DNA of 64,000 bases, taken from contig NC_087250.1 of assembly GCF_037042905.1 (NCBI RefSeq), positions 26,290,001-26,354,000 of the forward strand. Reading direction: 5' to 3'. This document shows, piece after piece, positions 1,499 through 58,980 of the stretch. This DNA comes from Lytechinus pictus. Its lineage: Eukaryota. The notes under the pieces are model-generated. The model saw nothing but the letters and a program-made list of their open reading frames with translations. It was not told the DNA's origin and did no database searches. Within the stretch, counting starts at the first letter, position 1; each line of letters starts with the position of its first letter. A program made the translations under genes and the position numbers.

Positions 1499-4170
<2,672 letters not shown>

Positions 4171-10096: not shown

Positions 10097-10669
10097 AGGG
10101 GAATCCAACCCAAATGAAACCTTTTTTTTATAAGGAAAATAAAAATCAGGCAAGTTGATAGGCGAAAGTTTGAACAATATTGGACAAACAACTAGAGATT
10201 TATGAATTTTTAAAAGTAATATTGGTTATCACTTTACCCATGAAGACTTCAAATTGGCCGCATATGGGATCATACTGATGTAAGGCAAGGACTGCTCTTC
10301 CATGTACTTCAATACATATTATGGCTAAAATTGCATTTTCCCCCAAAGTTTTATATCAAATTATATTTTTCTTTCATGAGGACATAAAACAGTACACTAC
10401 ATGTACCTGGGTTATATTTAGATTACTGCCCTAGTGGAATGGGTACTTAGGAGAAACCCACAAATCCCTGATTATTAGGTACATGGTCTATGGGAAAGTT
10501 GTCTATGCCCCTCGTCATAATTTGCTTATTAAATTTGAAATGTACATAGTGATCTCAATTTTTAAGCAGTTATTGCTTGTCCGATATTTTTTTCAAACTT
10601 TCACCAGTCTGTTTAATTTATTTTTCTCCTTCCCAACACAACATTTTATGGCCAAGGCTGGATTCCCCT
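10097..10669. mobile_element. MITE, Kolobok-like
   Basis: TIR aggggaatcca ... tggattcccct; flanks ttaa / ttac. Confidence 0.65.
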
Positions 10670-10674
10670 TTACT

Positions 10675-10705
<31 letters not shown>

Positions 10706-10772
10706 CAGTCAACCCCCCCCCTCCTCCCTCCCATTCCCTTTTCTCTCTCCTCCATTCTCTCGTGTACACAAT

Positions 10773-12073
10773 CAGTGGCGTACCGTGGGTCATGGCATTG
10801 GGGGGGCACCAGCAAAAATGTTGAGTCACTTAGTGAGCGCGCAAAGCGCGCTCATTTGCCAGGTATACTGACCTAATAGAGACATTTTAAGGACGGTGCC
10901 ATTAAACGGATATGTATCTCACTTATCAAATAATGCGAGCGCGAAGCGCGAGCTGAAAATTTTTGATATTCAGACCTAAGAAAGGATATAAGCAAAGTTT
11001 TGTAATCATGATACGTCCCTCTCTCACAAAACAAACAATGCGAGCGCGAAGCGCGAGCTGAATTTTTTTGTATATATTAACCCGAAAAAGGGAAATTTTA
11101 AGGACTGTTTTAGGGAATTCATAAAGAGCATACATATCTAACCATAGTCATCTAATGCGAGCGCCATGCAAGTGCTTGCTGATTTTGTTAGATTTACACA
11201 TAACCCATGAAACACCTTTTGTAGTCATTGTAATCATGAACATGATACACATCTGACTAATCAAATATTGCGAGCGCGAAGCGCGAGCTGAAAATTTTTG
11301 AAATTCAGACCTGAAGAGGGGCATTCTAAGGCTTGTTTGTAGGAATTCACGAAGACCATACATATTTCACTAACCAAATTATGCGAGCGTGAAGCGCGAG
11401 CTGAAATTTTTTTTTATATGAAGAGCAGACATCTCGCCAGTCCACTAATGCGAACGCAAACACGGACAGGAATTTTTTTATATTCAGACTTTAAAAGGGG
11501 GCAATCATGAAATAATCATTAAAAAAAGCATATGTTACTACATAAAACAATAAATACTCGAAGTGCGAGAAATTATATTTGGTGTATATTGACTTGAAAA
11601 CGGGATGTTTTAGTACAACAGGATTATGTATATAAATTAATATATCTCATTACTAAGACAATGCAAGCACCAGAAGTTATGAACACATTAGCCTTCCGTA
11701 CGCCCTAAGCCAATTATGTTTAATAAATTTATGAAAAAAATATTTATGTAATATGATGTGATATAATATGATATAATGTAATATAACATAACATAATATA
11801 ATATAATATAACATAATATAATATAATATAATATAATATAATATAATATAATATAATATAATATAATATAATATAATATAATATAATATAATGTAATGTA
11901 ATATAATATAATATAATATAATATATAAAATACAATAATTTCTTCTACCCCACTACGTTTCTCTTTCTTTCTCCTTCCTTTTCTCCTTTTCCCCCTTTTT
12001 TTTTTTTTTTTTTTTTTTTTGGCCAGCCGATTGGGTGGTCCCCCCATGCCCCCCCCCCGTAGTTACGCCACTG
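10773..12073. mobile_element. Non-autonomous hAT-like element
   Basis: TIR cagtggcgta ... tacgccactg; exact 8-bp TSD tacacaat on both sides; internal repeats of tgcgagcgcgaagcgcgagctgaa and an (ATAAT)n tract. Confidence 0.9.
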
Positions 12074-14326
12074 TACACAATCATGACCATCTTGATGTCC
12101 TGTTGTTTGTGTTAATCTTTCTCCCTTTCTTTCCTTTCTCTCCTTCTTCTACTTTTTCTTCTACTTCTTCTCCCCCTTTGTCGTCTTATTCTTCTTCTCC
12201 TCCTCCTACTTCATCGTCTTCTTTATGTTCAACTCCTCCTCCTCCTTCTTCTTCGTTTCCATCTCCTTCTTTTAATCTCAACTTTCTTCTCCTTATTGCC
12301 ATCTTTCTTTATTTTTTTTCATCTTTATTCCATTCGTCGACCATAGCTTAACTGAAGTTCAAACTGAATGACTTGCTGATTAAAAAATTGAAGCTACATA
12401 TAAATCTTTGTTGTATTTTTTTATTGTTAGATGCTGAGGATGCTATGGGATGAACATTTCATACATTCTAGCAATTTGTAAATCTTCTACACCAGAATGA
12501 GTTACTTGTTAAACTATGCTACGAAAAAAAATCTACGATCGATCCAGGTTCGTTAATAATCAGTGATAATAGGGACACTGTCAATGAATGGGCATGCATG
12601 CCGATATAATAATAGTCTAATAACATATCCGTTTTTTTGTTTGACATTTAATTTCGTTTATGCTGACAAAATTTCTTGATTATAAAAATACATGATTATT
12701 TGTGCATTAAAAATCACCCTCCTTATCACCACGATGATGACCTCAAAATACATCCTGCAAAGATTCCGATTAATTGATAACATTTTATTTGGTGTTAATA
12801 TTAGTGTGTATTCGTGTGTATTCATATGATTGACAAACTTATCTCGATAAGTAAATGTACTTAATTACCATAATCAGTGTAATAACGTTCCCTTTCTACT
12901 TACACATGACTATTTTCTGCTCGCAAGTTAAAATCATTTCGTCATGATTAAAGTTCATACATCCACTAACTTTTTTCTATTCAACAGCAAGTGTTAGTAA
13001 TATACAACAAAACATAATGAAAATATATTTTATTAATCACAAAACGTATACTTTCTACTCATTTTGCAATATACGCTTAAAATTATATGCCATTACATCA
13101 TAATAATTTTTTACATTAAGTCATAATAGAAATGTGCACTATTTACATGAGTTTTTCTAGTTTTATGAAGCGAATTGTAATCAGCTGTATAAAAGCAAAC
13201 AACAAATATTGAGCAAAAAAGAAAAACAATATCGGATTGTCAAGAGTTTCATTTGACAGTTCGCATAGTAACATCGCTTCTCAGGCAATCACAAACAAGA
13301 AAAGTCGTTAGATCTGACACATCGCCGAAAGAAAATGTTGATATATAGCACTTTCTCCCGTTCCATTTTTTATGTTTTTAGGAACAAATTTCGAATAACC
13401 TATGTGAATCCCTTATGATCAGAAGAAAACAATCGTTTTCATCTTTAGAAAATTCACTTTAGCTAATGCCTCTGGCATAGTCTTCCTGTTTACACACTAA
13501 ACACAATTTAAAATGGAAACGAAATAAACAAATGAATTGAATTGAATTAAATATTATATCAACATGAAACCTCGAGCAAAAGCTACATTATGTGCAGTTA
13601 TTTGACACATTTTCTAGTTCTGTCTGATATATATTCTTGTTATATTTATTTACAGCACATTACGATCAACCAGTATCGGATGTTTTTATTTTTATGTTTA
13701 TAATGAAATTAATTTGACTTGATTTCATGATGTTGATAAACAGCACTGAACGTAGTAGGCGCAAACACATTATTACAGTACGTCAATACAAATAACTAAA
13801 AAAATAAAAATAAAAAATGTTTCAACTCCATATGATACTTTAGATTCCCTAGTCACGTAGCCAATGTGTAAGATGAATAACCCGATCAATGTTAGGAGAA
13901 TAACATCGAATGAAATTGAATGAAATGTCGTTTAGTAAATGATCGGGTTAAGTTCAGACAAGTAAATTATTAACACGTTCAATGCTGAATTCAGCCATTC
14001 TAAAAGACTTTCTGCAATAACCATCTGGTTAAAGTAAGAAATTCGTGAACACATTTGTATTTATTTTGTTCAGGTTACGAGTAAACTATTCATTTTGGAT
14101 CGGAAGACATTCACTACAGACCTAAATCGAGACGGATGAATATTAGCAACAACTTCCTATATGGATTGATACAACATTACACACCATGACCATGTGTATA
14201 TGAATGTAGTCACGTACATACTAGCTAGAAGGATGTAAATTTTAAATGGAAGCAAAAGTGAAAACAAATCTCTGGTCTTTATTTCTCTTAAAAATCCGAT
14301 TTCATTCCTTTGAAAGTCTAGATGAT

Positions 14327-15879
14327 TTACAAGATAAATTTATTCTTGTAAATAATAAGTTTGTCTTTATCACATCCTACAATGTTACCAGAAGGAGTAA
14401 CGAGACAAGGGCTGATGTAGCGAGGGCTATCTGATTTCACGTATTCCACGATCCTCCTTGCCTGGATTATACCATCACGTGACACCTGGTCAACTGCGTA
14501 GGTCTTACGCGCTCTATCCCGGTGCGTGACGTAGAGTGTGTCTGTCAGTTTGTCAACTCGACACTCGGACCAGTCCCACTCATCACAGTGTATGACAGCC
14601 TTCACTTCTCCTGATCGTGAGATGACAGTGTATTTATTATTATCTGTACTCACAACGATATCACCTGACGACAAGGCTTGTATCTCACCCACCACCTTCT
14701 TACCCTGCATCGTAATAGTGTTTACTCTCTTACCATTAGCAGGATTGATGACGTAGATATTAGACTGAGCTAACTGAGCAGCGATGATCATCCCATCCCT
14801 GTCAACATCAACACACACACTCTCCTCTCCAATCATCGGTTTGCTGATGTCTCTAATCACCTTCCATTGTCTGTCATAGAGAGTGACGATTCCATAAAAC
14901 GTGGAACTCTCGTCATGATACCTCTGAATACCACATACTATTCTGTTACTGTCTATCGGCGCACATGATGCAATGCACGTGTTACTATTTCCAACCATTA
15001 CTTTATTTGTATCATGAGTACTGATGTTTGCAACATACCAGTCATTGCTACCTTCGTCTTGCACACATATCTCATTATCACTGACCAAATCACACACAGA
15101 TTGGGGATTAACAACCAATGAACCAATTTCGATTGACTTGGCAAGTTCCCATTTACCGATATACCCACCAATTCTACCATAGTATTCTCCACCTACTTCC
15201 CCCTCTACAAACTTCACTCTCTCAACTTCACTCTCTATTCGGTCAAGACAGTCGCTAACATCTTGATGAACATTCAAACTTAAATGTTCATCAATAGATG
15301 CAAGTACTTGAGGAGCTTCATCATGTTGGTTTATACGTGTGATGGTTGATTCAATATCCTTCATTGCATTCTGAATCTTACTATTAAGATCGCTTATCTT
15401 CTCTGAAACTCTTTTGCTAATTTTATCTGTGTCTGATAAGCATGATGACAATTTTGTTATTTTGTCTTGTAAAAATGTCCGTTCCAATTTCATCTTGACA
15501 TTATGATGTTCAATCTGTTTTTGTCGCATTTCATTTATACCTTGTATTTTCTTATCTGCCTCCTCGTTTATATCACGAATACATTTCTCATGTTCCAGTG
15601 TTATTAAATCTAACTTTAATTGAGTACCTTTCAATGCGTATTCTATACTACCTTTAATCGTTTCAAGATGCTTAATTGATGAATTTGAAACGGCATCTAT
15701 CTTGCGTCTTTGTTTTGTGTCCTCTAACATGACCCGTTTCTCCTTCAGCTTCTTCCTTATCTCATCTAGCTCAGGTTGTTTGTGGTCGTTGCCTTCGGTA
15801 GTGTTCGGGCTATTAGAAGACATTTTGACATTGCGTTGCTCCCCTGTTACATCTGTTTCAGGTTGGGACACAGAGCAAC
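14327..15879 (-). CDS. Intact terminal coding exon: coiled-coil followed by NHL-like beta-propeller (TRIM-NHL-like C-terminal region)
   Basis: 514-codon stop-free ORF; helical K/E/L-rich N-half, then beta-strand repeats (VCVDVDRDGMIIAAQ, IQALSSGDIVVS, CLVTPSGNIVG). Splice acceptor ...acgatatag|GTTGCTCT at 15879, phase 1, so the ORF-track start is not the true start. Confidence 0.85.
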
Positions 15880-15974
15880 CTATATCGTAAATAATGATTA
15901 AAAATTTTTCAATTATGAATGGTTAAGTTTTTGTAGTGTTATATTTGATGATAATGATAATAATGACCCTTTTA

Positions 15975-16115
15975 CCCATACTGGGCTGCACTCAACCCAG
16001 GTGAGGTAAGTGGGTACCAACAGGAAGTAATTCCTCAAAAAGCTGACAGCACCGAAATCGTTAGACTAGCTTAGCAGAGTGTAGGAGGAGAGCTTAATAA
16101 GGTTGATACGCGCTT
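15975..16115 (+). mobile_element. SINE fragment (same family as about 39060-39260 and 43490-43675, both on the minus strand)
   Basis: Shared motif gctgcactcaacccaggtgaggt..tgggtacc recurs three times in the window. Confidence 0.6.
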
Positions 16116-16356
16116 TATACCATGTATACAGTGCGTCCCAGGAAAAAAAACTGGAATTCATTTTAATTTTTGCCATCATCATTATATATTTTCTTCTTGA
16201 GATGAACATCATTAAAAAGATACGCTATCCCTCTTCCATTTTAAAGCTCATATCAACGTTATAGTGCTAGCTTGACTGAGTTAGAACAAAGTGGTGCTAG
16301 CAAATTTCATTATGCACGAGCAAATTACGAATTGAGATGACCTTTGCTGGCTTTTA

Positions 16357-16552
16357 CACTCTTAAAAATGTTGGGCAACATACGGTCCACACAACAATTG
16401 GTTAAAACTTTATCCAATTCTGGGTAGTTTTACACCAATACTGTGTAGTTTTCACCCAAAGCACACATTATTGGTGTAAAACTACCCAGAATTGGATAAA
16501 GTTTTAACCAATTGTTGTGTGGACCGTATGTTGCCCAACATTTTTAAGAGTG
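16357..16552. mobile_element. Palindromic MITE, CAC termini with TA TSD (EnSpm/CMC-like or Tc1/mariner-like)
   Basis: ta|cactcttaaaaatgttgggcaac...gttgcccaacatttttaagagtg|ta; long inverted arms; second copy at 58981-59176. Confidence 0.85.
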
Positions 16553-17329
16553 TACTGCTATGTAATTGGAAAAATAAAAGTTCTCATCGTTTATATTAAT
16601 CTTTCATCTTTCATATGAGACCCTGTGCATGAAATATGATCGACGCATTGTCGAAAAAAAGATGCATGAAAACATGTTTGATTTTTTCCATTTCATCTAT
16701 TAAGAAAACGAGCATTTTCAACAAGCGACAGACAACGCAACGGGCTACGGGTAAATGCACGGTGAATGTGATTTTATTGCTAGCTTGAAAGTGATGTTTG
16801 AATTCTTTTTGTAAAACTTGTAAAAATATGCTTCATATGACAAGACGAGTTAGGGTGGTGTGGAATATTGGAAAGGGGGGCGGGGGAAGGGGTGACTCAC
16901 TTAAAGGAAACCAAGAAAATGAGTTACTCCCCTTCAATTGTAAAAAGTGATGTACCCCTTTTCTGCTGCGCCCTACCCCTTTCAAACATATTCTGCCGCC
17001 ATGTGATGTGGAGCAACGAATGAGACGAATGAGAAAAGTTTGAGATAAAACTTATCGTAATTATTACAATTGTATTATTGAATTATCGTAACCATATACT
17101 CCAGTCCGCAACAATAACAGGGGCCGCGGAACGGTTTTCAAGGGGGGGGGGGGTGGCTGAGTGGCTGACCATGCAACAAATCACAATCATATGGTCGTTT
17201 TTTGTGCACTTATTATTGAAATAGATAGCAGTTAAAACCAGCAAAAACTCACTCAAAAATCATAATTTTGTCGTGCAAATGGAAATTTGGTACCACGACG
17301 TTTCGGTTTACTGACGGATGGACTATTGT

Positions 17330-17860
17330 CACTTGGTCTAATCATCAGATGGGCTAACAACATTCGGGTTAAACCAACTTAGTCATATTCTCTTTTGGTC
17401 TAATGACCCCTTGGTCTAATAGCCAATTAGTCTAATGACCACGCGGTCTATTAGCCACTTGGTCTAATTACCATTTGGTCTAATAGCCAATTGGTCTAAT
17501 TACCACTTGGTCGAATAGCCGCTTGGTCTCTTGCCCAGTTGGGCTAATCGTCACTTGGTCTAATTCTCATTTGGTCTAATTGCCATTTCGTCTAATGTAT
17601 TTTATTATCACTTGGTCTAATTGCATTTGGTCTAATACCACTTCGTCTAATAATCGGATGGTCTAATACTAGTTGGTCTAATCCTCACTTGGTCCATTAT
17701 TCATTTGGTCTATATTGCAGTTAGTCTAATGTGCAGTTGGTCTAATCCTCACTTGGTCCATTATTCAGTTGGTCTAGTTTCCATTTCGGCCAATTTCCAC
17801 TTGGTCTAATTTCCAGATAGTCTAACATTAATTTCGTCTACATGCCATTTGGTCTAATTT
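17330..17860. repeat. Degenerate ~20-bp tandem repeat (core cacttggtctaat)
   Basis: More than 20 consecutive units sharing ttggtctaat. Confidence 0.9.
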
Positions 17861-19479
17861 GTAAAGTCTGCATGGTGACTTGTTTTCATTTTTTTTGTGT
17901 GAAATTTTTAAAGTTACTTTCCGCGCACCGGCTTCGAATCTTCACACGCGCGCCCCTCGAAATTGGAGTACAGTTAGAGTGACGTATATTTCGTCCTCAG
18001 CTGGATTTTGAAAATTTTGGGATTTTCGAAAGCCTGTGGGGACGAAAAAAATATGGGGATTAAACAAACTTTGGGATTTTTTTTTGGTCTGTTTCAGGGG
18101 ATTTTTGAAGGTTTTGGTGAAAAACAATCAAATTTGCTATTTTTCTGTAGAATAACGCTAATATAGCGGTGGAAAAAAAATATGATATTTATTTATCCTC
18201 CTCTATGTATACGATTTACTATAGATAGTTAACGCTGGCTTAACCCAATCATGGTTCCCAACTTTTCAAGAAACAAAAATCCCTGATTTTTCTCTGATGA
18301 AGTTTAAAAATTCCCGAATTATTTAAACCCAATTCCAGTTTATCATGTCTTCTAAATTGTTGCAGTGAAATACAGGTATTATTATTTTTTTTATTATGCA
18401 TCTATAATGTACCAGTAGGCCTATTGTAGTAAGAGAGGCTACATGAAAAAAAAACCATAACATGTCATTCAATGAATGCTGTGTTAATATACAACAAAAT
18501 ATAACAGAGTCTGAATGACTATCGTGCTTTCGACTTTTGGGCCGATCAAAATTACCTGATTTTGCCCTCAAATGAGGCATTTTCCCCGGATTGAGGCAAT
18601 ATCTGATTGTAGGAACGTTTAAAAAATCCTAAATTTCCTTGATTTCCCTGATGGGGTGGGAACCTTGCCAATCCATTTTAAGGAGGAGGCGAAGAAGAAG
18701 AACACAAAACAGAATGAGAAGATACATAAGATAAAAGACTACTGATAAAGGTGTGCAAGCGTAGACTATACTGTGTTATTACACGTCAGAATGAAGTGGC
18801 TGCTACCAAAATGGTCGCAGTGATGTTGTTGCATATAACCCGATAGACCTGTATAGTGTTATCAAACTTTATTTAACTGGTCTGTTATTTGCCTCCAAAC
18901 TAACTATTGAAATAACTAAACAAAATATTCATAACGAAATTACATAATCTAATGGCTTTGCAGTTTTGGAATCCCCCAAACTGCATAACTAGGCCATCAA
19001 GTTCAAGTATCGTCCATAATGATGCATCACAATTATTTAAAAGAGGCATAAACATGTTTACCAAATACGTATCCACACAATCAATTACATCATTTTTGTT
19101 CCTTTCTTCATAATAGTTTTATTCTGATGAAACCCCGCCATTTGACCATTATAAGCTACAAGGTCCCCAACTTATTGTTCTGTAAATGTGCATGCGGCGA
19201 TGTAATGATTATGAGTATGATTTAATTTTCATCATCATCTTATAATCGATATACAGGCCTAATTATAAGATTTATTTGATTAGAATAATTCATTTGATGA
19301 GCGACAATCTCATCATCGATATTCCTTCACGGTGAGGTTTTGCGCCCACCATGCAGCCCTACTAGGCAAAGAGCATTAGGTTTAACATGGAAATTTCTGG
19401 TAACAAGCTGATTTTTTTAGGATAGGTCCTGCAATGTGTCTAGAATAACATACTAAAAGTCCCCATAAATCCTCCGTGG

Positions 19480-20205
19480 GGGTTTTCCGCAATCCAAGAT
19501 GGCGTCCAAAATGGCCGCCATCCACAGAAAATGCGCATAACTCACTCATTATTCACACTAGACATTACATTTCAGTGCATATTTCATGGTTAAAAGAGGT
19601 AAAAAAAAATATAGTGATATAGGTTAGAGTGAAAATAAGCATACCAGGGTACCTAAAAATCCAATATGGCGTCCAAAATGGCTGCCAAAGCCTAAAAATC
19701 CACTATTTATCTATTACTTACTATAACGTCTTTAATTTGGTCTCTATTTAATGGTTTTAAGTAATGGTTTTTCAAGTAATAAATTAGGACAAGTTACAAG
19801 GACAGTCAGTGGTCAAGTATGTCTGAAAATGCAAGATGGCTTCCAAAAATGGAGTCCAAAATGGCCGTTTTTACTTGCAAATGGATTTGAGTTTGGTGTC
19901 TAAACCATGGTTAGAAAGGTAAAATAATACATTTGAAAACGCTAAAAGGCCATTCAGTGGTCAAGTTTGTCCAAAAATCCAAGATGGCTTCCAAAAATGG
20001 ACTCTAAATTGACTGCTGTTACTAAAAAATTGGCATACTTCATTAAAAATCCACCTGAGATATATAATATTGGTGTCTAAACCATGGTTTGAAAAGTCAA
20101 ATATTACATTTGGACAAGTTAAAGGGACATTCAGCGGTCAGGTATGTCCCAAAATCAAAGATGACTTCCAAAAACGGAGTGTAAGTTGACTGCTGTTACT
20201 GATTT
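19480..20205. repeat. Interspersed repeat with reiterated aatccaagatggc(g/t)tccaaaatgg blocks
   Basis: Five diverged copies of the block spaced about 150-180 bp apart. Confidence 0.6.
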
Positions 20206-20551
20206 TTTTTTTAATTGCTGTATATTTGCTACGGATGGTTAAGTGCAGTGCATACATGTAGATTGTTTAGAGTAACACCCATATGTTACCACAATGTGCC
20301 ACAAAATATACCTTTTATAGGGAAAATAAATCTATAAAATCACCTGTGACATTTAGTCTTCAATAAGAGTTATATAAATATCTAATCATCCAACATTATA
20401 TTACATCCATATTAACTATAAATTCGTTCGAATTTACAATCTCGATTTACAATTTCGCGATGTTTAGGCCCCTACAGTCAATGAAAACTTATGCACTGTT
20501 ACTTTACAATTACATGTATTACCAATTCTCACCTTAGCTTTAAACAATATT

Positions 20552-20671
20552 AAAACGTCTCTATTAGGTCAGTATACCTGGCAACTGGGCGCGCTTCGAG
20601 CGCTCACTAAGTGACTCAAATTTTTTGCTGGTGCCCCCCCCCCCCATGCCGTGACCCACGGTACGCCACTG
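20552..20671 (-). mobile_element. Terminal fragment of the hAT-like family at 10773-12073
   Basis: Reverse complement of about the first 115 bp of that element; it directly abuts and truncates the pseudo-exon. Confidence 0.85.
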
Positions 20672-20956
20672 GCAGCAATGATCATCCCATCACTGTCAAC
20701 ATAAGCATACACACTACTAACATGAGTAATCCGGAAACCAGTCATTGGTATGCTGATGTTTCTAATCACCTGTCATTGTCTGTCATAGAGATAGATGCAT
20801 CCATTCAACATGCGTCTCTTACCACATACTATTACATTACTGTCTATGGGCGCATACGATGTAATCAACTTACCTACGCCAATTAGTTTCTCTTTGTGTT
20901 GAGTATTGATGTTTGTAACTTACCTGTCTTTGTTACGTACGTCTTGCACACATATC

Positions 20957-22109
20957 TATGAGGCGCCGATTGTACCAATATTATATAGAACAATTATTTG
21001 TTATATAATCATTATTTATTGAATAATAACTATTATTTATATATAATTTACATTTTATTTGTAAATAATTACTATTGTATAAAATAACATTTCTAATTAT
21101 TTATATATAATTCCAAGTAATACTTCATTATTTGTAAATAATAATAGTTCGACATTCCATTATTTATAAATAATGATTATTTGTTTTTCATTATTTAGAA
21201 ATAATGATTATTTGATTTTCATTATTTATAAATAATGATTATTTGTTTTTCATTATTTATAAATAATGATTATTTGATTTTCATTATTTATAAATAATGA
21301 TTATTGTTTTTCATTATTTATAAATAATGATTATTTGTTTTTCATTATTTATAAATAATGATTATTTGTTTTTCATTATTTATAAATAATGATTATTTGT
21401 TTTTCATTATTTATAAATAATGATTATTTGTTTTTCATTATTCATAAATAATGATTATTTGTCTTCTATTATTTATAAATAATGATTTTCGTTTTTCATT
21501 ATTTATAAATAATGACACTACATACTTCATTATTTATAAATAATTGCAATTCGTTTTTCCATTATTTATAAACAAGTTTTCTATTATTTATAAATAATAA
21601 TTATTTGCGAGAATAAATACAGATCGAACATGAAATTGCCGTTTCTCAACTTTATTGCCTCTGGGGGATTTTACCAGAATCATTAAAACGACATTTACAA
21701 TATTTTAACAAGTACACAGTTTCTAAACAATATTCATCAAGCCACAATCAACCAGATTTTAAGGGGGAAACCGGGTCACGTGACCTCCCAGAAGGAAGAG
21801 ATCCAACGGGATCCCAGGACAGGTATTTCCTGGGGTGCGGATTCCCCTCTTTACATTTATCATCTATTCAATACAAGATTATCTCATGTGTGAAATAAAA
21901 TTGGGGGAGAGGCTTCAAGACCAGAACGTGAATTCTTGGAAGGGGAACCTGCCGGAAGACATCCAGCCGGACTTCCAAACCAGGAGACTTTGGAAAGTTG
22001 GGTTCCCCTGTCCCGATTTTCTTGACATAATTAGTATACAGTGCCTCCCCCTGGTGTTGAAATTTGACAGATATAAGAAAAAATACCCACAAAAAAGCGA
22101 AAGCCCCAA

Positions 22110-22159
<50 letters not shown>

Positions 22160-25100
22160 CGTGACACTTGGCAAACACTATTGGATTTTGGGAGTCCCTT
22201 CATGTCAAGGCCATCCCTCCCAAACCATCGCGTCTGGTTTCCTGGTTGCAACTCATGGTTTCGGAAACCCATAAATTATGCTCTCTCTCCCTTGTCCTCT
22301 GCACTAGGACCAAAATATATACTATGAGCGTCATCTTCTTTTGTCATGTAATTATACTCGTACTTCAATAATGTCGCCATTATACTAGTATGAGAATTCT
22401 ATTTTGTGCATTTTATCGTATAATAATACTCGATAAAATAAGGGCCACTCTTCCAAAGCACCCCCGATATCATGACTAAGGTAGGATTTGGTCCCATATT
22501 CTGCCTCCTCGGCGGCGACCCTAAATGGTAGAATAGAGGGCCGTGCATCGGTGCCGTCGACTTTAAATTATCAAACCATTGCCTCCCCTGGAAAGCTGCT
22601 GTCAAAGCTACCGATAATAATCAGTCGGTAATTCTGTAACCAAGCCCAACCAAGCCATAAGTTCAAAAGTGAGTTTTCACGCTCGACAACCCAGCCAATT
22701 CAATAATCAAGGACAACAACAACTAAGTTAATGATCAATAAACCATGCCAGCCATCGGAATGGATAGTCAACAATCAAAAAATTATTCCATACAAAGCAA
22801 TCTCATGCGATCAACGAATGGACGCATCATATACCATACTCTTCGTCTACACCTCCAAGTTGTTATAAATATCTCTACATCAATTGGACATTGGCCAACC
22901 ATTCTCACTCTAAACCATTAACAAGCTTGACAACATCGCATCCTTGCTTATTTCATTCCCCCTGCGAGTGAATGTTGTTCGCAAGTTTGAGCCCTCGTTG
23001 CACTAAACATAACTCATGCAACGAGAGCTGAAACCAATTCCACGTCAAGTAGGTCCAGGGTAAAAAACCAGAGATAAAACTCGGTGAGAAGAAACTCTGG
23101 AAAACCTTCGGATCCACTTTTGCGGAAATGTGAAACAACAAATCAACAAGTGTCTTGGCACACCTTAAAAAGGAGTACCCTTCTTTCAACTAATTTCAAC
23201 TTAATGTCAATTAGGGGGTCATCGAAGTGACTCTAACATGAAATAATTTGAGGCCAAAGAATATATCAAATTAATGTATAGCCAAACCATGCTAGTAATT
23301 CTATCATTATTGTACAACTCAACTGTTTGATGAAATGCCATATAAAATCAATCTCCACAACTATTTGATAAATGTGTATTTCTTTTCAAGTGAACAAACT
23401 GTGGCCTCCATAACCGTTAAATAAGACCATTGAATTTCATCATCCCTGGTAACAGTTCATGCATTAGGAAATTTTGCATGATTTTCTCATGTGTAATGTT
23501 AATGTAGGAATGCCTTCCTTCAAGCTAAGAACCGGGATTTTTTTTTTTTTTTTTTTTTCGTTTTTGGTCACCAGTGTGAATCGAAACAAATAAGATCCAT
23601 TCCACATCGATTAATGAAGTTAAATGGGGGCATAAAAATCAAGGCGTGCATTCCCACATTCAAGTTGGCTTCATATATGAGATCGCCTCTTACAACAGGT
23701 GAGGTTATGTCTTAAAGGAAGAGACATATATAAGCACATAAATGCACCAGAGGGACATGCCTCACATTTTTTGTTTATATTCTTGGTTATCGATGCTTCA
23801 ACCGACTTTGCTGGCTGCCCAGAATTGCAAATAGATACGAACTGAAGGTGTTCCCATAATGCCCCTTTTTTCCAAGGTTTTTTAGTTTTCTCCGAAAGGG
23901 TTATACTTCTCAACAACTTCGAGATTATTCATGTTTCCTCTTCAAGTCTGGACTTAAGGATCTTGATCACTGCATTTCTCAACCTCTCGTCTATTTAGAG
24001 CATTACGTTAAACCATAAATCCGGCATCTTCAAATGAATCCGGATTTCTCATCTTGCAGTGTGAAAACCTTTGCAACCACTGTCATCCAATGTGAACCAT
24101 AGTAAGCCAAGTCTAAGCCCTGTCCCTTCGTACACTAGTCCAGGTCAAGCTTAGCTAAGTCTCCTCGTACCTCAGTCTGGGTCTAGGCTTGATCATTTGT
24201 GCCCTGGCCAATTAACTTCAGACTCCACGTCCCTGGAGAGGTAAAAAACAAACAAATCTTCCGGCAGAGTATTGTTCAACACAACGTGACAAGAATGTGT
24301 GCAAGGAATTCCATACCTGTTCCCTTATACTTTCCACAACTAATCGCCTCAACCTGCAACGCTCCAGAATTGCAATAAAAGGGGATTTTCCCAGGCGCCC
24401 TTTTAAAAAGTATGCCAATGAATTTGTGAATCCCGCACTCGTTCCCTTCACTTTTCACAACTAGGGGCCGAACCTACAGCGTTGGATAAGCTTTAACATG
24501 GCAATAAATGGGGTTTTCCAGGGCTCTTTTGAGCACTTCGGGGGGGGGGGGCACAAACGCCCCCAACCTCCCCTCCTCACCCGGAATGACACAATCGACG
24601 TATATTTTATTGTGGTTATGTCCTATCTTTACGCCATCTTATAAACTCGAGGCCGGCGAGAAGGAATAAGTGGTACGGACACTGGGCATACATTGACTAC
24701 ATTTCCGAACTGACATTTGGTAATAGAGGTCTATAAAAAAATGACGTATCTTAGCATTCCCCAACCTCATCAAGCAACTAAGCTGCCAGTTAATTCATGT
24801 AGGTCCAGAACAGGATGAAGTTGACCAAGCAAATAACTATTATTACACACGCCCAATGGACAGCAAAATACGGATTACGGTACATCGACCTATACCTCCA
24901 CCATCCATCTCAACGAATAATATCGTTTTAGTACCGGTAGGCGAATGCAGTTTATTTCATCATATTTATCGTATCCCTGTTCACACCGAAGCCAGCCACC
25001 CCAGTTTCATTTATAGCCCCTATCCTGTTCATTTTGGGGAATTTGGTTACAAAATGCCAGCTGATCAATGGGCTCAAATTATCGTGGGATCCAGCTTGGT

Positions 25101-28100
25101 GTATGGAGCATCGTTTATTTCTTTTTTGTTTATTTTGTAGCATGAGCCGGGACTCAGCTGGCGAAACAGAATGTTGATCCTTTAATTAGATCCAACACAA
25201 AAAACCCACACCGTGATAGGCCTTGACCTAACATTTGACAACCCAACTCAGTCCACTGTCCAACGCTGCCTTTCCGAGTGGGGCGCGACGCCAAGCCCTC
25301 CGATTCGACCCTCACCAACGCTCTCATAAAGTCATATTGAATCAACTTAACTCATGGAGCAACCCAACTCCAGTCGCAAACCAAGCCGAGTCGAAGCTAG
25401 CCTAGGTCCTTCAGTTTCCATTTATCCTGCATTCCCGCAACCACATTAGAAATATATTGAAAAATGTTCGGTCCTATTAGATCGAAGCCAAAGGGGTTAT
25501 AGGGATAGATCCAGGTCCAGAGAACATTTAGTCTGAGTTGGAACTTTGAATTTGGTCAATAGATATAGGCCTAGATCTAGTATCACAAGTTATAACGTTA
25601 GAGTTCCGGGCCCCAGTTAAGTAATAGCTATACTATAGCGGCCGGTTCAGGCCAAATTCATTTAAGGTCTAGGTCAAGATGTGCAACTACAAGTACAAAC
25701 ATGGATCCAAACACTCACCGGGTCAAGATATATACACTGTGGTCCGGGCCCTAACTCCACTCCATTCGCATCAACAATCAATTAGATCCAGCTCCATCGA
25801 ACTCGAAGCATCGCCGGCAGTTTTATCACAGGCACAGCCTCAAAAGACAATCGGCCTAGTTGTACTCATAGGAGAACAACTCCGGCAAATATCCTCATTC
25901 ACGGCATTGGTCAGAGCTTCCGTTTGACTGAAAGTACTTATTATTCCTGTGGAAGCTGATGTATATTCCAACTCTGCAGTCTCACCGATAGACCGTGGCA
26001 AATAGCGGTCGATCTAACGTTAGACCTCTAACGAGAACGGTGATCCCGGCCTAACTGAGATAGTCCCTGTAGGGGTTCGGTAATTCAGCGTTGTATCCGT
26101 CCATCCCTTCACTGCACTCTGCAGCTCCACCAGCGTGTCGTCAGCGAGATCTGGACGGCTAGCCATTCATAATGTTGATAAAAACGCTGAGAATTAATTT
26201 TCCCGGGATCCATTTTATCCTGACATCCCTGTGACCTGGGATGAGCAATACTAGTACTTGAATTGTTTGTATTAGCCTGCTAAAGTGAGGCCTAAACTAT
26301 GATGATCCAAGAACGGTTTCATAGCGAACTACGAATTAACGTCTTGCATCCCCCAGAGCTTAGTTGAGAATGAACATGTGCTTCCAAATCTGTCGCGTAT
26401 TGCGCACGTCCCTGAATTCTTTCAATGCATTTCATTGGTTCTTTTTAGCGTAGAGGCTGTGCCCCCGTTGCCGTTGCCTGGCTGTCACCAAGGGCGCTGT
26501 GTAACGGCGCCATCCATGACATGCCCAGCCAATCACAGACATGTTGCTGGGGGCGTGTCCTTGGAGAATTCCCGCGGAATCGCAGGGGCGCGCTTTGTTT
26601 TCGCGGGCCGTGTATGGCTTGCCAATAATTGGTTTTTTGAGAAGACCTGTCTTCTCTCGCAAACTATCTTCTTCGCTTATTCGAATAATCTTATTATTAA
26701 CAATGCCAGTGCACATTTCTTTATTTATAAATAATTTGTTGAGTTTCCCATTATTTATAAATAATGATTATTTGTTAAATAATGAAAACGTCTACTTCAT
26801 TATTTATAAATATTTTTTTCGAGTGCGCCATTATTTTCATTATTTACAAATAATTATTATTTAATGTTCGAGTTTTCCATTATTTATAAATAAAGATTAT
26901 TTGTTAAATAATGAAATATCTACTTCATTATTTATAAATAATAATTTAGTTTCAATATCCCATTATTTATAAATAATCATTATTTATAAACAATTTTTAC
27001 AGTTTGCCATTATATACAAATAATCATTATCTATTAAATAATGCCATTATTTATTAAATAATGGAAAACACGCTATAACATGCAAATGTGGGACCGGCCA
27101 TGATATTAATATTCATGATGCGATTTCCTTTTTCGTGATTTTTCTTCACAATTTTTTGTCCGTTTCCTCTTCATAATGGCATTTCTTGAAGCAATTTTCT
27201 AGGGATTTGGTCTGATTGTAATATTCTTCATTTTCTATATAACTTCGTCTTCGTAGAAATATCAAAAAGTGTAATTTTATACGATTTTTCCTACAGTTCA
27301 CAATCCCCGTAGGCGCGCGTGTATTTCACCTTTTCTCTCTGATCGTAGGAACAACCCAAGGGTTCATTACATGTTGTCGCGCACAGAAAAATTAAGCCAT
27401 AGAAGTTGCGTGTTGTGGACACCAGAAGTGAGATCCCAGCACACGCGACCCACTTGTTAGAAATCCACTGACCGGTGAATCGACGAAATGCTCTTCATCG
27501 AAATATTACGTTGGTTGGTCCCCGGAACTGTCGGGCGGAATTTAGCCCGAAATCCGGATCAAGTGCATATGAGCTGAGAGAGTGAGTGTAAGTGAATCAG
27601 GCCCTTCTACTTTCTATAATTTTTTTTTTTTTTTTTTTGTTAAGTTAATTTTTCCCAAAAATGCTCGCAACGACAATACGGGGGCATGATGACCCCTAAA
27701 TTTTTGAAAAAAAAGTGCCCAAATTACAAGCTTGGTCGCTTCGCTGTGTCGCTTTCAACTTGAGAACGAGTTTACACGCATGCTCCCCCCCCCCCCCCCC
27801 CCCCCGAAAGAAATTCTGTGTACAGCCATGCTCAAAAGAGCCTGGCACATTGATTTATATATACTTTTCATTTTCATTATTTTTATATTTTTTTTCTAAA
27901 TTATCACCATGGCCTCACGCATAATTTTTTCAGGGGGGGGGGGGGAGCATGACGCGCGTAAACTTTCCAATAAAAAAACCTTGAAAGCGAGACAACCACG
28001 CGACCAAGCCAAAATGACAAGCTTGGTCGCTTCGCTTTTTCAAGATTTTTTTTAGAAAGTTTACGCGCGTCATGCTCCACCCCCCCCCCCGGAAATTTCT

Positions 28101-30149
28101 GCGTAAGGCCATAGTGATAATGAGATAAAAATAATGAAATTGAAAATAATTTCTTTTGGGAGATGGGGGCAGACGCGCGTAAACGCTCTCAAGTTGAAAG
28201 CGAGACAGCGAAGCGACCAAGCTTGTCATTTTGGCTTGGTCGCGTGGTTGTCTCGCTTTCAAGGTTTTTTTTTTGGAAAGTTTACGCGCGTCATGCTCCC
28301 CCCCCCCCCCTGAAAAAATTATGCGTGAGGCCATGGTGATAATTTAGAAAAAAAATATAAAAATAATGAAAATGAAAAGTATATATAAATCAATGTGCCA
28401 GGCTCTTTTGAGCATGGCCGTACACAGAATTTCTTTCGGGGGGGGGGGGGGGAAGCATGCGTGTAAACTCGTTCTCAAGTTGAAAGCGACACAGCGAAGC
28501 GACCAAGCTTGTCATTTGGGCACTTTTTGGAGTTTTAAAAGTGAAATATGAAGGCTTTCGTGCACACTTTTGGTGAATTTTGTGATAATTTTCAATAGAA
28601 AAATAAGTTTTCAAAAATGTAGGGGTCATCATGCCCCCGTATTGTCGTTGCGAGCATTTTTGGGAAAAATTAACTTAACAAAAACAAAAAAACAAAAAAT
28701 TATAGAAAGTAGAAGGGCCTGATTCACTTACACTCACTCTCTCAGCTCATATGAACTTGATCCGGATTTCGGGCTAAATTCCGCCCGACAGTTCCGGGGA
28801 CCAACCAACGTAATATTTCGATGAAGAACATTTCGTCGATTCACCGTTCAGTGGATTTCTAACAAGTGGGCGCGTGTGCTGGGATCTCACTTCTGGTGTC
28901 CACAACACGCAACTTCTATGGCTTAATTTTTCTGTGCACGACAACATGTAACGATCCCTTGGGTTGTTCCTACGATCAGAGAGAAAAGGTGAAATACACG
29001 CGCGCCTACGGGGATTGTGAACTGTAGGAAAAATCGTATAAAATTACACTTTTTGATATTTCTACGAAGACGAAGTTATATAGAAAATGAAGAATATTAC
29101 AATCAGACCATATCCCTAGAAAATTGCTTCAAGAAATGCCATTATGAAGAGGAAACGGACAAAAATTTGTGAAGAAATATCACGAAAAAGGAAATCGCAT
29201 CATGAATATTCATATCATGGCCGGTCCCACATTTGCATGTTATAGCGTGTTTTCCATTATTTAATAGATAATGGCATTATTTAATAAATAATGGTTATTT
29301 GTATATAATGGCAAACTGTAAAAATTGTTTATAAATAATGATTATTTATAAATAATGGGATATTGAAACTAAATTATTATTTATAAATAATGAAGTAGAT
29401 ATTTCATTATTTAACAAAAAATCTTTATTTATAAATAATGGAAAACTCGAACATTGAATAATAATTATTTATAAATAATGAAAATAATGGCGCACTCGAA
29501 AAAATTATTTATAAATAATGAAGTAGACGTTTTCATTATTTAACAAATAATCATTATTTATAAATAATGGGAAACTCAACAAATTATTTATAAATAAAGA
29601 AATGTGCACTGGCATTGTTAATAAATAATTATTATTTATAAATAATAGAAAACTTATTTAAAAATAATGGAAAAACGAATTGCAATTATTTATAATTAAT
29701 GAAGTATGTAGTGTCATTATTTATAAATAATGAAAAACGAAAATCATTATTTATAAATAATAAAAGACAAATAATCATTATTTATAAATAATGAAAAACA
29801 AATAATCATTATTTATAAATAATGAAAAACAAATAATCATTATTTATAAATAATGAAAAACAAATAATCATTATTTATAAATAATGAAAAACAAATAAAA
29901 ATTATTTATAAATATTGAAAATCAAATAATCATTATTTATAAATAATGGAATGTCGAACTATTATTATTTACAAATAATGAAGTATTACTTGGAATTATA
30001 TATAAATAATTAGAAATGTTATTTTATATAATAGTAATTATTTACAAATAAAATGTAAATTATATATAAATAATAGTTATTATTTAATAAATAATGATTA
30101 TATAACAAATAATTGTTCTATATAGTATTGGTACAATCGGCGCCTCATA
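20957..30149. mobile_element. 9.2-kb long-TIR DNA transposon, IS3EU-like, apparently non-autonomous or decayed
   Basis: Termini tatgaggcgccgattgtacc ... ggtacaatcggcgcctcata; exact 6-bp TSD catatc (empty site visible in the intact paralogue near 15071); TIRs over 500 bp built of ~31-bp repeats containing the palindrome cattatttataaataatg. Superfamily inferred only from TAY..RTA ends and the 6-bp TSD. Confidence 0.8.
26694..29624. repeat. Large inverted repeat (arms about 26694-28036 and 28207-29624, spacer about 170 bp)
   Basis: Arms are near-perfect reverse complements, e.g. ttattaacaatgccagtgcac / gtgcactggcattgttaataa and gcttggtcgcttcgct / agcgaagcgaccaagc. Confidence 0.92.
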
Positions 30150-31578
30150 CATATCTCATCATCACTGACTAAGCCACAAACATACGACTCATTAACAACC
30201 GATGGAATGTGAGTTGACTCGTCAATTTCCCATTTACCGATATACCCATCAATTCTACCATAGTATTCTTCACCTACTTTCCCCTCTACAAACTTCACTC
30301 TCTCAACTTCACTCTGTATTCGGTCAAGACAGTCGCTAACTTCTTGATGTATCAACAGATGCACGTACTTGATGAGCTTCATTCACCGATGTTTCATCAT
30401 GTTGGTTTATTCGTGTGATGGTTGATTCAATATTCTTTATAGCATCCTTAATCTTACCAGTAAGATCCATTATCTTCTCTGAAAAGAATTTTGCTGATTT
30501 AATCTGTGTCTGACAAGCATTTTAACAATTTAGCTTCTTTTTTGTTGTTGTTGCTTAGTTTTCGTTCCCGGGCTATCTCACCTTCGTAGGCTTCGATCTG
30601 TTTTCGTCGCCTTTCGTCTATTGCTCGTATTCCCTTATCTGCCTCCTTGTCAATTTCTCGAATCAATTTCTTTTTTTTTTCCGTTCTATATCATTACAAT
30701 TACCGTTAATATCTGCCAATGTCTCTTGTATATCACCCTTAATCATGTTACTTGTATGAAGATGCTTACTTGATGGTTTTGAAAGGTCCGTTAGTTTCCA
30801 TTCAACTATCTTGCTTCTTTGTTTAATTCCCTCTAACATGGCCCGTTTCTCATCGAGTTGCTTCCTTATGTCGTTTGGATCACGTTTTTCCTGGTCGTCT
30901 TCTTTGATACTCGGAGGAGGAATTTCGACGTTGTGTCGCTTCGCTTTGACATCTCTGTCTTGCATTTCAGTCTGAGATACAGAATAACCTACATCGGAAA
31001 TAATAACAAAGAATATTGAATTACTTCAATGTGATTGTTTTGGCTTCTGATTTCCAAGCGGTTGCCAATTAGGTAATATGTTTTTATCTTATCAAAGACT
31101 AATACGTTACTCTCTTGATAAGAAGAAAGAAGGTCAAATGTTTTAACTCTTAAACTCTTTTTACCTCTAACAGTATAAGACAGGTGCTCTACCACTATAC
31201 TTCTCTGACCGGATATCTTAAGATGAAATCATTACACAAAATTTGAATCACTAGCTTTCAAAAATTGGAAAATGTTAATTCTTATTAAGAATTAGGGAAG
31301 TTATAAAAATAAATTATTTTCTTAATAAAATGTATATTGATCTCAAGGATCAATATTAGAAGAGGCCCGCCGTTGGCGGAGCAAAGAAAAGGGGAACAAA
31401 GAGAAAAAAGGGGGATGAAGAAAAGAAGGGACTGATAATAAAAAGAAGAGGAAGAAGAAGGAGAACAATAAATTAGCACGGTGTAATAATACCAAAAATA
31501 CCATGGAATGATTTTTTTTTAAAGCGGCCAGATACTTGTTATTAGAATAAACAAGATTTTTACACTTTTTCTTCTTAC

Positions 31579-31855
31579 TTGAAGGAAAGAGTTCATCAGC
31601 CAGTCGAATTTGACCAGCTTTCTTCAGAGCAGTCTTCAGACCTTCTCTCTCTGTCGCAATTTCTTGACCTTTACGCCAATCCCGGAGCATTTGAAGAGTT
31701 CCATCCCAAGTAATGTTATGTGTTTTGTGATTAGTTGCTATGTAACGTTGAACATCGGTAGGAGTAAATCCAAGCTCTCTTCCCAAGCTGCCGATTTCCG
31801 AGTTTTGGAAGACTTCTCTAGCCACTTTGATCAGGACATCTTCAAAATTCGCCAT
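31579..31855 (-). CDS. First coding exon encoding a DEATH domain
   Basis: GCCATGG start with an in-frame upstream TAG; helical pattern LIKVAREV...SLGRELGFTPTDVQRY...TLQMLRDWRK...LKTALKKAGQIRLADEL; donor TCAA|gtaag at 31579 (92 codons + 1 nt, phase 1); acceptor ctacag before 31879. Confidence 0.85.
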
Positions 31856-32984
31856 GGCTTCTGCCTACTTTGGGGTTACCTGTAGACTGAACAATTAAAA
31901 ATCAAACCTAATGGCATTAGTAATGATCATGGGTGTCGATCCTGAGCGGATGGGAGAGGGGGGATAAATCCTCAAAAAAATCAGGTGGGGATGGCCTTTA
32001 CAATCACCACCCCCCCCCCCCTCCCCTAAATAAGGGCATGGGCAAAAGAAACGGTATATCTCCAGAAAATAATCGATAAATGTATTAAAATACATAAATC
32101 AATAAAAAATGACAACAGAGATTAATACACAAAAAAGAAAGAAAAACAAAATTAATTTTCAAAATCGGTTCCATTTTATATTTTGTCTGAAGTTGACAAG
32201 TCTGTTTTGAAAGCAGGTACCTCACTCATCTGTTTGTGATACTTAGTAGGTGAATGTGAATATATCGGGTGATTTTATTAGCCATAAATAAATGCATATG
32301 TTTAGGCCTCTCTAATTTTGATGGTGCATAATAGGTCCATGATAAAAGTAAGGTATTTTTATACCCGTTCTTATTAGTTTAACAGAAGTTACACAGGTTG
32401 GATATACAGCTTGTGCGTTTAAAACTTTGAATGAACTTGCGGATTGAAGGGCAACAAGACACTAATCCAAAATCGTAAAAAAAATATTACGCAGCCTCAA
32501 ATTTCAGGCGACTCATTATAATGTGAGCGTACGTTATAAACCTGTTTGGAAATTTTGAACTTTGATGGTACTATATTTTCGTTTTGCCATGTTAACAATT
32601 ATGTCAGAATCTTACACTATAAATTTGATTGTGATATGTTATATATTGTGTATATGTAATTATTTTATTTGTTCTGTACTTCGTCCTAAAGAACCAAACT
32701 ACCTGGACTTATTTTCATTGTTTGTAATTTCGCTTTGTTTTGTTTTGAATAAAGGTGATATAAAAAAAAATGAAAGGATCATGTAGTTATCTCATAAAAC
32801 TGACATTTTGACCTTACACAAAACTGTATTTTCATGTTTTACCTTTTATCATTGGCGTAATTAACAACGGGGGAACGTGCCACCCCATTTGCTGGCAAAA
32901 GCGAGATAAAAAAGATTCAAAAGAGGAAGAATGAAAAATGCAATAGGGGAGAATTAACTATTATTATATATATATATTGATATG

Positions 32985-48379: not shown

Positions 48380-48659
48380 TCTTGCTGGTGATAAAGTTGT
48401 GCCATGTCCAGTTGTGAGTGCTATTCCGTGTGAGAGTAGTGAACAGAGCAGTTGGTTGCAGAATTTCCTACTGTGTTTCCGTCTTGTGCTGTAACTCGTT
48501 TGATGGCAAAGAAAGTAGAGTCTGAATCGAAGTCTAGTGAGCTAGATGAGGTTAACTTGGGATATTATTTCTATTGTCGTTTGATTGATGATGAAAGTGA
48601 ATCAAATGTGAATGAGGGTGCAGGGGAAACTCAAAGTACAGAAGAGAAAAGTAAAATGT

Positions 48660-58884: not shown

Positions 58885-58980
58885 TTCCTTGTTTCTCGGT
58901 AGTCTTTAGATCTTCTCCCCCCCCCCCCCCCTCTCTCTCTCTCTCTCCCTTATTCCATCTTTATTCCCCTTGTCTCTCTA

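What the first reader, a model, noticed from the sequence alone, without database searches (positions are those of the whole stretch)
14327..31879. One DEATH exon, two alternative terminal exons: possible rescue by splicing over a dead paralogue
Seen: the DEATH exon ends in a phase-1 donor (31579). Both downstream terminal exons (30988 and 15879) begin with homologous phase-1 acceptors. The proximal one is wrecked; the distal one is fully open, and I find no DEATH exon between 15880 and 20550. Inference: splicing 31579 to 15879 (15.7-kb intron) gives a 609-aa DEATH-coiled-coil-propeller protein, i.e. a constant signalling exon with variable last exons, or a chimeric gene formed by deletion within a tandem array.
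Basis: partly seen in the sequence, partly recalled or inferred. Interest (0 to 1): 0.75.

Follow-up and report, generated by a model that had tools for sequence, protein, structure and literature searches.

The report
Two broken urchin genes spliced together
In a sea urchin gene array, the front half of one broken gene and the back half of its beheaded neighbour appear to be spliced into one open reading frame by a splice site that lay dormant inside the broken exon, a small but clear case of a new immune-type gene being built from wreckage.

Summary
The coordinates, phases and open 609-aa join are correct, and the DEATH exon does reach the distal exon in RNA, but apparently not directly. One assembled contig of run X7 carries the DEATH exon, then 219 unplaced letters, then the distal exon from its exact acceptor; its mismatch counts match the window allele in 4 of 4 intervals. 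The only 219-nt exon candidate in the 15.7-kb gap is the first 219 nt of the "wrecked" exon (30988-30770), ending at a latent donor upstream of all its lesions. Product: 682 aa, DEATH - duplicated linker - coiled coil - NHL-like propeller. Paralogues show the origin: a deletion fused a DEATH-propeller gene to a DEATH-TIR-propeller gene that lost both its DEATH and TIR exons. It is a local chimera, not a constant/variable exon system. Limits: the middle letters were inferred from length, support is one shown junction contig at depth 3, run type is not on record, and dN/dS shows no purifying selection, so NMD-proof read-through without function remains possible. The scan earlier noted the intact DEATH-TIR paralogue (e1-7810536), not this locus. 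New variant of a known kind; interest 0.5.

The parts
31579..31879 (-). DEATH exon (acceptor before 31879, ATG 31855, phase-1 donor after 31579); belongs to the B-type paralogue group
   Evidence: Pfam Death E 0.002, 18.6 bits, under the 22.6 cut-off, 20 of 21 aligned relatives match Death; groups with L032/L033 at 100/98; 31704-31579 present in X7 contig 12
30770..30988 (-). Inferred internal exon, 219 nt, phase 1-1, 73 codons: the undamaged front of the proximal last exon, closed by a latent donor TCAA|GTAAGC at 30769
   Evidence: 219 letters lie between DEATH and distal pieces of X7 contig 12; the only 219-nt candidate in 15880-31578; letters themselves not shown by the tool
30149..30769 (-). 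Dead remainder of the proximal exon, first part: frameshifts near 30680 (+2), 30488 (+1), 30351 (-20); now intron in the long form, read to a stop at 30663 in the 200-aa form
   Evidence: database model P0121
20958..30148 (.). 9.2-kb insertion: foldback-type element with long inverted arms containing 31-bp tandem repeats, 8-bp target duplication AGATATGT (30156-30149, 20957-20950), with a nested 5.1-kb dispersed repeat (about 21596-26695)
   Evidence: outer arms 171 of 174 identical
20671..20949 (-). Dead remainder of the proximal exon, second part: stops at 20922 and 20775, cut off at 20671
   Evidence: both stops shared with the sister copy
20460..20670 (.). Fusion junction between B-type and A-type gene; 20670-20550 is a 120-bp end of a high-copy repeat
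20344..20353 (-). Last 10 nt and donor of the deleted TIR exon (about 620 nt removed, acceptor included)
   Evidence: alignment with L061 and L064; no TIR match in window or sister; position
15880..20460 (-). Remains of the A-type introns (patchy homology to introns of the L034/L061/L003 and L064/L002 genes)
14327..15879 (-). Distal last exon, intact, A-type: linker, coiled coil (about aa 30-220), NHL-like beta-propeller (about aa 242-513); AATAAA at 14283 and 14065
   Evidence: contig pieces cover 15879-15328, 15159-14857, 14458-14191 in both X6 and X7

Best explanation
A young chimeric gene with three coding exons. Two tandem paralogues once stood here: upstream a B-type gene (DEATH exon + last exon) and downstream an A-type gene (DEATH + TIR + last exon). 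A deletion, ending at 20670/20460, removed the end of the B-type last exon together with the A-type promoter and DEATH exon; a second deletion removed the TIR exon with its acceptor. Transcription from the B-type start now runs on to the orphaned A-type last exon. That downstream acceptor lets a latent donor 219 nt inside the old B-type last exon be used, so the front of that exon becomes an internal exon and every frameshift, stop and the 9.2-kb insertion fall into a 14.9-kb intron. All junctions are phase 1, so the product is open: 682 aa, DEATH - duplicated linker/helix start - coiled coil - NHL-like propeller. Likely action (inferred): a RING-less, B-box-less TRIM-like cytosolic sensor that dimerises by the coiled coil, binds a variable ligand on the propeller loops and recruits DEATH-domain partners; a 200-aa DEATH-only form from the proximal exon may coexist as a decoy. 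Shown: sequence anatomy, paralogue homology, one spliced contig, allele match by counts. Inferred: identity of the 219 letters, order of events, translation, function.
For:: X7 contig 12 (897 nt, depth 3) has letters 1-128 on the DEATH exon and 346-897 on the distal exon from the exact acceptor; X6 contig 5 also enters the distal exon at the acceptor after 287 other letters; other-letter counts 14, 6, 3, 3 equal the window-versus-sister differences in 4 of 4 long intervals, while paralogues differ by far more (106-118 in the longest); one 219-nt candidate only; 682 aa open; of 6 strong donors in the proximal exon only those at 219 and 285 nt give a full frame. DEATH and proximal exon group with B-type (100/98, 100/99), distal exon with A-type (99/96). 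A-type paralogues have a TIR exon whose flanks, but not body, are in the window; 3 frameshifts and 2 stops in the 900 nt behind the donor, none in the 2049 nt used (p about 0.003 if all decayed equally long); pLDDT 85, best target TM-scores with NHL domains (0.70-0.72); pooled dN/dS 0.42 in coiled coil, 1.20 in propeller over 25 exons; 25 of 33 most variable columns in loops.
Against: The 219 letters were not displayed. Only one junction contig is shown (16 of 1340 pieces listed), depth 3; X6 and X7 are one study, their kind is not on record, and they may not be independent of the assembled animal. Raw RNA runs X9 and X10 (about 6 in 100 read) show next to no depth on the distal exon. Window versus sister dN/dS is 0.69 (8 synonymous, 20 non-synonymous; window branch 4 and 10), DEATH versus B-type paralogues 1.1-1.2, kept 219 nt 0.82-0.87 against 0.89-0.95 for the dead part: no sign of purifying selection. 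Absence of lesions in DEATH + 219 nt alone is not significant (p about 0.11), and the distal exon may have been kept by its old gene until recently. The database model P0121 stops in the proximal exon and no database protein holds the distal exon (best 68%). Promoter and first non-coding exon were not located.
Confidence: 0.7

Rival explanations
1. Same spliced structure, no function: a doubly damaged locus whose read-through RNA is visible only because this one splice choice escapes nonsense-mediated decay; the open frame is a matter of recent age.
For: No purifying signal; low depth and absence from X9/X10; 4 of 6 strong donors would give early stops and be degraded, so survivors are biased to open frames; lesion-free DEATH + 219 nt has p about 0.11.
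Against: All deletions and both remnant stops predate the sister duplication, yet the distal exon took only an in-frame 15-nt deletion while the promoter-cut sister took a frameshift; 5 lesions in 900 nt against 0 in 2049 nt.
Confidence: 0.35
2. One reading: DEATH donor spliced directly to 15879 (609 aa) as the main rescue product.
For: In frame; 36 of 51 joints and most contig pieces were not displayed, so a minor direct form is not excluded.
Against: No such joint among those shown; both contigs that cross the acceptor have long stretches that do not lie on the reference right before it (217 and 287 letters).
Confidence: 0.08
3. The living product is the 200-aa DEATH + short helix protein of the database model; the distal exon is an orphan picked up now and then.
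For: P0121 = XP_063956578.1 is exactly DEATH + proximal exon to the stop; AATAAA at 30411 and 29429 could end it; short DEATH-only proteins exist in sea urchins (P0125-P0127).
Against: Whether the model rests on RNA was not visible; it does not explain the intact, transcribed distal exon.
Confidence: 0.15
4. A regulated constant-exon / variable-last-exon system that spreads one DEATH exon over many propellers.
For: All modules are phase 1; a GT sits at the latent-donor column in 18 of 30 family exons; database model P0092 splices out of a B-box exon at this same position into a TIR exon.
Against: Only one intact last exon lies downstream in the window; the 4 other intact close DEATH exons each sit 0.5-7 kb before their own last exon; most last exons start with their own Met and B-box.
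Confidence: 0.05

Closest known systems
TRIM-NHL proteins (Brat, Thin/Abba, Mei-P26, TRIM71, TRIM2)
   Same: Coiled coil followed by a propeller whose best structural fits are NHL domains; array relatives carry a B-box, PF00643.
   Different: No RING, no B-box; DEATH domain in front; 12-16% identity; no Pfam NHL hit; hypervariable loops and tandem expansion rather than a conserved RNA-binding role.
A-type paralogue XP_063956665.1 (P0003; DEATH-TIR-coiled coil-propeller) and B-type XP_063957348.1 (P0052; DEATH-coiled coil-propeller)
   Same: The two parental gene types, same genome, 80-82% nucleotide identity.
   Different: This locus takes its head from one type and its tail from the other, lacks TIR, and has a duplicated linker through an internal donor.
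Pyrin/TRIM20 (architecture recalled; also named in e1-7810536)
   Same: Death-fold head in place of RING on a coiled coil plus recognition domain.
   Different: DEATH rather than PYD, propeller rather than B30.2, no B-box; analogy only, homology not tested.
Fish finTRIMs (PMC2657112; abstract and passages read)
   Same: Lineage-specific tandem TRIM-like expansion, positively selected loops on the C-terminal domain, exon shuffling with other immune genes.
   Different: RING-B-box-B30.2, virus-induced; no such expression data here.
Hybrid genes in tandem arrays (KIR, CFHR fusions, recalled; CYP21A1P/A2 chimeras, PMC11749890 seen as listing only) and composite internal/terminal exons such as IgM heavy chain (recalled)
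   Same: Deletion joins the head of one paralogue to the tail of the next; an exon can end at an internal donor or run on to a poly(A) site.
   Different: Here the crossover is not in register; the frame is restored by a latent donor in a pseudogenised exon across a 14.9-kb intron made of wreckage.
Foldback transposons, incl. the sea urchin element of Liebermann 1983 (cited in PMC4079207, passages read; TU name and 8-bp duplication recalled)
   Same: Long inverted arms with a tandem-repeat domain, target duplication.
   Different: 31-bp unit, nested 5.1-kb repeat; no transposase sought.

Membership tests
TRIM-NHL | N-terminal RING | tested here: not met
   No RING hit in DEATH, proximal or distal exon; none in P0009
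TRIM-NHL | B-box | tested here: not met
   Absent from this product; present in array relatives (PF00643)
TRIM-NHL | Long coiled coil | tested here: met
   Helices 55-108 and 113-184, pLDDT mostly above 90
TRIM-NHL | NHL-type beta-propeller | tested here: inconclusive
   Propeller fold certain; highest target TM with NHL chains 0.70-0.72 versus about 0.55 for WD40, but WD40 chains rank alike by E-value and Pfam NHL does not hit
Death-domain superfamily (PF00531) | Death profile match | tested here: met
   Sub-threshold for this exon (18.6 vs 22.6 bits), but 20 of 21 aligned relatives match, best E 1.7e-8; weak profile hits to ankyrin-1 and FAS death domains, E 0.26-0.4
Death-domain superfamily (PF00531) | Homotypic binding to a DEATH partner | not tested
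   No partner known; no complex job sent
Constant/variable exon clusters (protocadherin- or UGT1A-like, recalled) | Several intact alternative exons sharing one constant exon | tested here: not met
   One intact last exon in the window; other DEATH exons have their own
Composite internal/terminal exon | Internal donor used | tested here: met
   By length and uniqueness only
Composite internal/terminal exon | Same exon also used as last exon with a poly(A) site | tested here: inconclusive
   Database model P0121 and AATAAA at 30411, 29429; the reads were laid on a stretch that lacks this exon
Deletion-derived hybrid gene | Head and tail from different paralogue groups with a junction between | tested here: met
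   Trees, intron homology switch at 20670-20460
Foldback transposon | Long inverted arms with tandem repeats and target duplication | tested here: met
Foldback transposon | Cognate transposase | not tested
   Not sought

The most novel reading that the evidence does not exclude
The array carries a built-in recombination kit at RNA level: phase-1 heads (DEATH, TIR), a phase-1 acceptor before every last exon, and a dormant phase-1 donor at one fixed place in the coiled coil. Any deletion or read-through then yields in-frame head/propeller swaps, so that damaged members are recycled and one signalling head can be paired with different hypervariable propellers, a somatic or population-level source of sensor diversity in sea urchins. 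This locus would be a caught example, with the distal exon's own copy of the donor since lost (G to T on the window branch only) as an adjustment to its new role.
Probability: 0.12. Interest if true: 0.8.

Novelty: new variant of a known kind. Interest (0 to 1): 0.5.

Why it matters
It is a rare case where each step in the birth of a chimeric gene can still be read: two parental types, two deletions, a transposon, a dead sister copy as neutral control, and a transcript. It shows that an exon scored as pseudogenic can donate a live internal exon, which annotation misses (the database has a 200-aa model and no protein for the intact distal exon). It also extends a Lytechinus series of DEATH/TIR heads on TRIM-like propeller tails, in a group whose TIR domain combinations were described as few and human-like (PMC2575513, passages), and gives a testable pair with and without TIR (682 aa versus P0003).

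Tried and rejected
No RNA holder on record was listed for 14200-16000; this blank is no evidence. Search for a second DEATH exon or any TIR exon in the window: none. Search for a database protein with the distal exon: best 68% (lengths 283-903 only); TIR search among longer proteins gave 5 hits, all labelled L. pictus (weak evidence, since known S. purpuratus relatives P0122/P0123 were missed). dN/dS tests for selection on this locus: uninformative or neutral. A regular-expression look for the latent donor in paralogues failed and was redone by alignment. My first cut around the insertion was 2 nt off and corrected; the 'dead remainder' dN/dS uses the earlier cut. The TAA at 30501 was counted with the +1 frameshift, and compensating indel pairs (net -18 near 20815) were dropped before the count of 5 lesions. 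AlphaFold of P0003 gave a poor TIR region (pLDDT below 50), so the TIR label rests on weak Pfam TIR_2 hits (E 0.005 and 0.014). Sister copy as an uncollapsed haplotype: considered; its different upstream context (cut inside the DEATH exon) favours a segmental duplication, not proven. Literature: six searches listed no paper that by title or abstract start describes this family or locus; only three papers were opened, no supplements were seen, and most subscription papers are not held. Earlier scan notes near this place or by sequence: none.
Full report
Setting. The window is G000:C6:26290001-26354000 of an 812-Mb genome. Protein hits are labelled Lytechinus pictus, one of them (P0121, XP_063956578.1) identical to the DEATH exon. 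All exons discussed lie on the minus strand.

Observation. New: the proximal exon is split by a 9.2-kb insertion (30148-20958) with an 8-bp target duplication and long inverted arms; it resumes at 20949 and is cut off at 20671 by the end of a high-copy repeat. Behind position 30769 it holds 3 frameshifts and 2 stops in 900 nt.

The family. The distal exon has 85 matches in the genome (83 of 149 candidates scored), many in arrays on C6. Most of the 30 loci fetched begin with their own Met and a B-box (PF00643): single-exon B-box - coiled coil - propeller genes. A few have a DEATH exon in front. Three kinds are seen: DEATH + B-box exon (L035/L023); B type, DEATH + B-box-less exon across a 0.6-kb intron (P0052, P0124); A type, DEATH + TIR-like exon + B-box-less exon (P0003, P0001). 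The acceptor of the DEATH-linked exons aligns with an AG just upstream of the ATG of B-box genes such as L009, so the heads seem to have been spliced onto an old 5'-UTR acceptor (inference). Among the 132 proteins held, DEATH or TIR joined to this tail occurred only in entries labelled L. pictus; S. purpuratus entries have DEATH-TIR-DEATH without it.

The locus is a hybrid. The DEATH exon, its intron and the proximal exon are 81-82% identical to B-type genes over 2.4 kb; the distal exon and its flanks are 80-82% identical to A-type genes. Trees agree (17 last exons, first 600 nt; 10 DEATH exons). Homology to A-type introns starts at about 20460. The A-type TIR exon is missing by a deletion of about 620 nt that leaves its last 10 nt and donor at 20353-20344. 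So the distal exon's native partner was TIR, and the A-type DEATH exon and promoter are gone. A sister copy at C6:26.125-26.147 Mb is 96-99% identical from window 4200 to 21297, shares the junction, the TIR deletion and both remnant stops, lost 21297-31546, is cut inside the DEATH exon and has a 14-nt frameshift in its last exon. All rearrangements therefore predate a duplication of about 2.5% divergence.

RNA. Reads were laid on the sister (L065:1-7150), where donor and acceptor are 5.2 kb apart; 4 of the 14 listed runs were used. Raw runs X9 and X10 (about 6 in 100 read) gave next to no depth on the distal exon. Contig sets X6 and X7 (one study, kind not on record) each cover three stretches of it at depth 3-7. 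X7 contig 12 has letters 1-128 on the DEATH exon and 346-897 on the distal exon, starting on the first exon base. The exon ends at letter 126, so 219 letters intervene, beginning GT. The differences to the sister (14, 6, 3, 3) equal the window-sister differences in the four long intervals; two shorter pieces (12 and 16 other letters against 4 and 3) come from paralogues. A scan of 15880-31578 for AG|GT...219 nt...|GT returned one candidate, 30988-30770, with a donor as close to consensus as the DEATH donor (7 of 9) and no stop. The three-exon frame is 682 aa. X6 contig 5 enters the same acceptor after 287 letters, which fits 68 + 219 but was not shown. No direct joint is among the 15 of 51 joints displayed. 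The middle letters were not displayed; their identity is an inference.

Mechanism. Once the B-type exon lost its end and poly(A) signal and a free acceptor lay downstream, a dormant donor could be used. It is ancestral: the same TCAA|GTAAGC is in L003, L005, L022, L027 and the sister (5 of 30 rows; GT in 18 of 30, 3 rows gapped). It lies upstream of the first frameshift, so all lesions are intronic. Of 6 strong donors in the exon, 2 give a full frame. The 73 added residues duplicate the linker and first helix start of the distal exon. The window's distal exon alone changed this GT to TT after the duplication; with 14 changes on that branch this is suggestive and post hoc. Database model P0092 leaves a B-box exon at the same position for a TIR exon, but it is a prediction.

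Protein. The distal exon folds with pLDDT 85 into long helices and a propeller, best fitted by NHL domains. Pooled pairwise dN/dS over 25 intact exons is 0.42 in the coiled coil and 1.20 in the propeller, and 25 of the 33 most variable columns are in loops (pairs are not independent, gene conversion is likely). This is the pattern described for finTRIM recognition domains (PMC2657112, abstract and passages). A sensor that couples ligand binding to DEATH-domain signalling is the likeliest role (my estimate 0.4); nothing here tests it.

Is it functional? For: 0 lesions in 2049 used nt against 5 in 900 unused (p about 0.003 if all decayed equally long), an in-frame deletion on the window branch against a frameshift in the sister, and transcription. 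Against: no dN/dS signal, p about 0.11 for the B-derived part alone, unknown order of B-exon death and fusion, low depth, absence from two RNA runs. I put the transcript structure at about 0.85 and selection for the product at about 0.55.

Known and new. Hybrid genes by deletion, cryptic donor use and composite exons are known (recalled). Domain shuffling in deuterostome immune genes is known, mainly from amphioxus (PMC2575513, passages). Six paper searches listed nothing on this family by title or abstract start; supplements were not seen. Verdict: observation confirmed, interpretation partly right, new variant of a known kind, interest 0.5.

Noticed in passing
G000:C6:26125278-26147200 (L004, L043, L062, L065): Sister duplicate of window 4200-21297 + 31546-31746; a 10-kb deletion there removed the proximal acceptor and would have given a clean DEATH-to-distal gene, but the copy is cut inside the DEATH exon and frameshifted.
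   Followed up: yes
G000:C6:27.0-27.95 Mb, 22.9 Mb; C16:5.2 Mb: Arrays of B-box - coiled coil - propeller genes with hypervariable loops; series of heads: none, DEATH+B-box, DEATH-TIR, TIR only (P0001, DEATH exon broken in L064), DEATH only.
   Followed up: partly
P0124 (L033/L005 gene): Database model extends DEATH - coiled coil - propeller into ZU5 and a further death-like domain (1081 aa); may be a prediction artefact or read-through.
   Followed up: no
P0092: Database model leaves a B-box exon at the same latent-donor position and enters a TIR exon.
   Followed up: partly
window 26684-29633: Near-perfect foldback: 1028-bp arms 97.7% identical around an 833-bp palindromic core.
   Followed up: partly
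window 21596-26695: 5.1-kb dispersed repeat nested in the foldback element, at least 11 other full-length copies at 95-98%; elsewhere its last 362 bp recur at the other end.
   Followed up: no
window 16355-16554: 200-bp palindromic MITE, absent from the sister copy; second copy at 58979-59178.
   Followed up: no
window about 15985-16045 (L065 1852-1926): Short repeat in the intron near the distal acceptor with very high read depth in all four runs; probably a SINE.
   Followed up: no
window 46219-56063: Degenerate Gypsy-like retrotransposon ORFs on + (46981-51454), with a LINE-like RT fragment on - (52153-53463); 133-bp terminal repeat 99% identical.
   Followed up: no
window 57427-62442: Resembles the 3' flanks of family genes (window 12633-13803, L043, L063, L027) without an exon inside the window; a further member or its trace may lie beyond 64000.
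   Followed up: no
window 1499-4171: Tandem duplication of 1357 bp, 97% identical.
   Followed up: no
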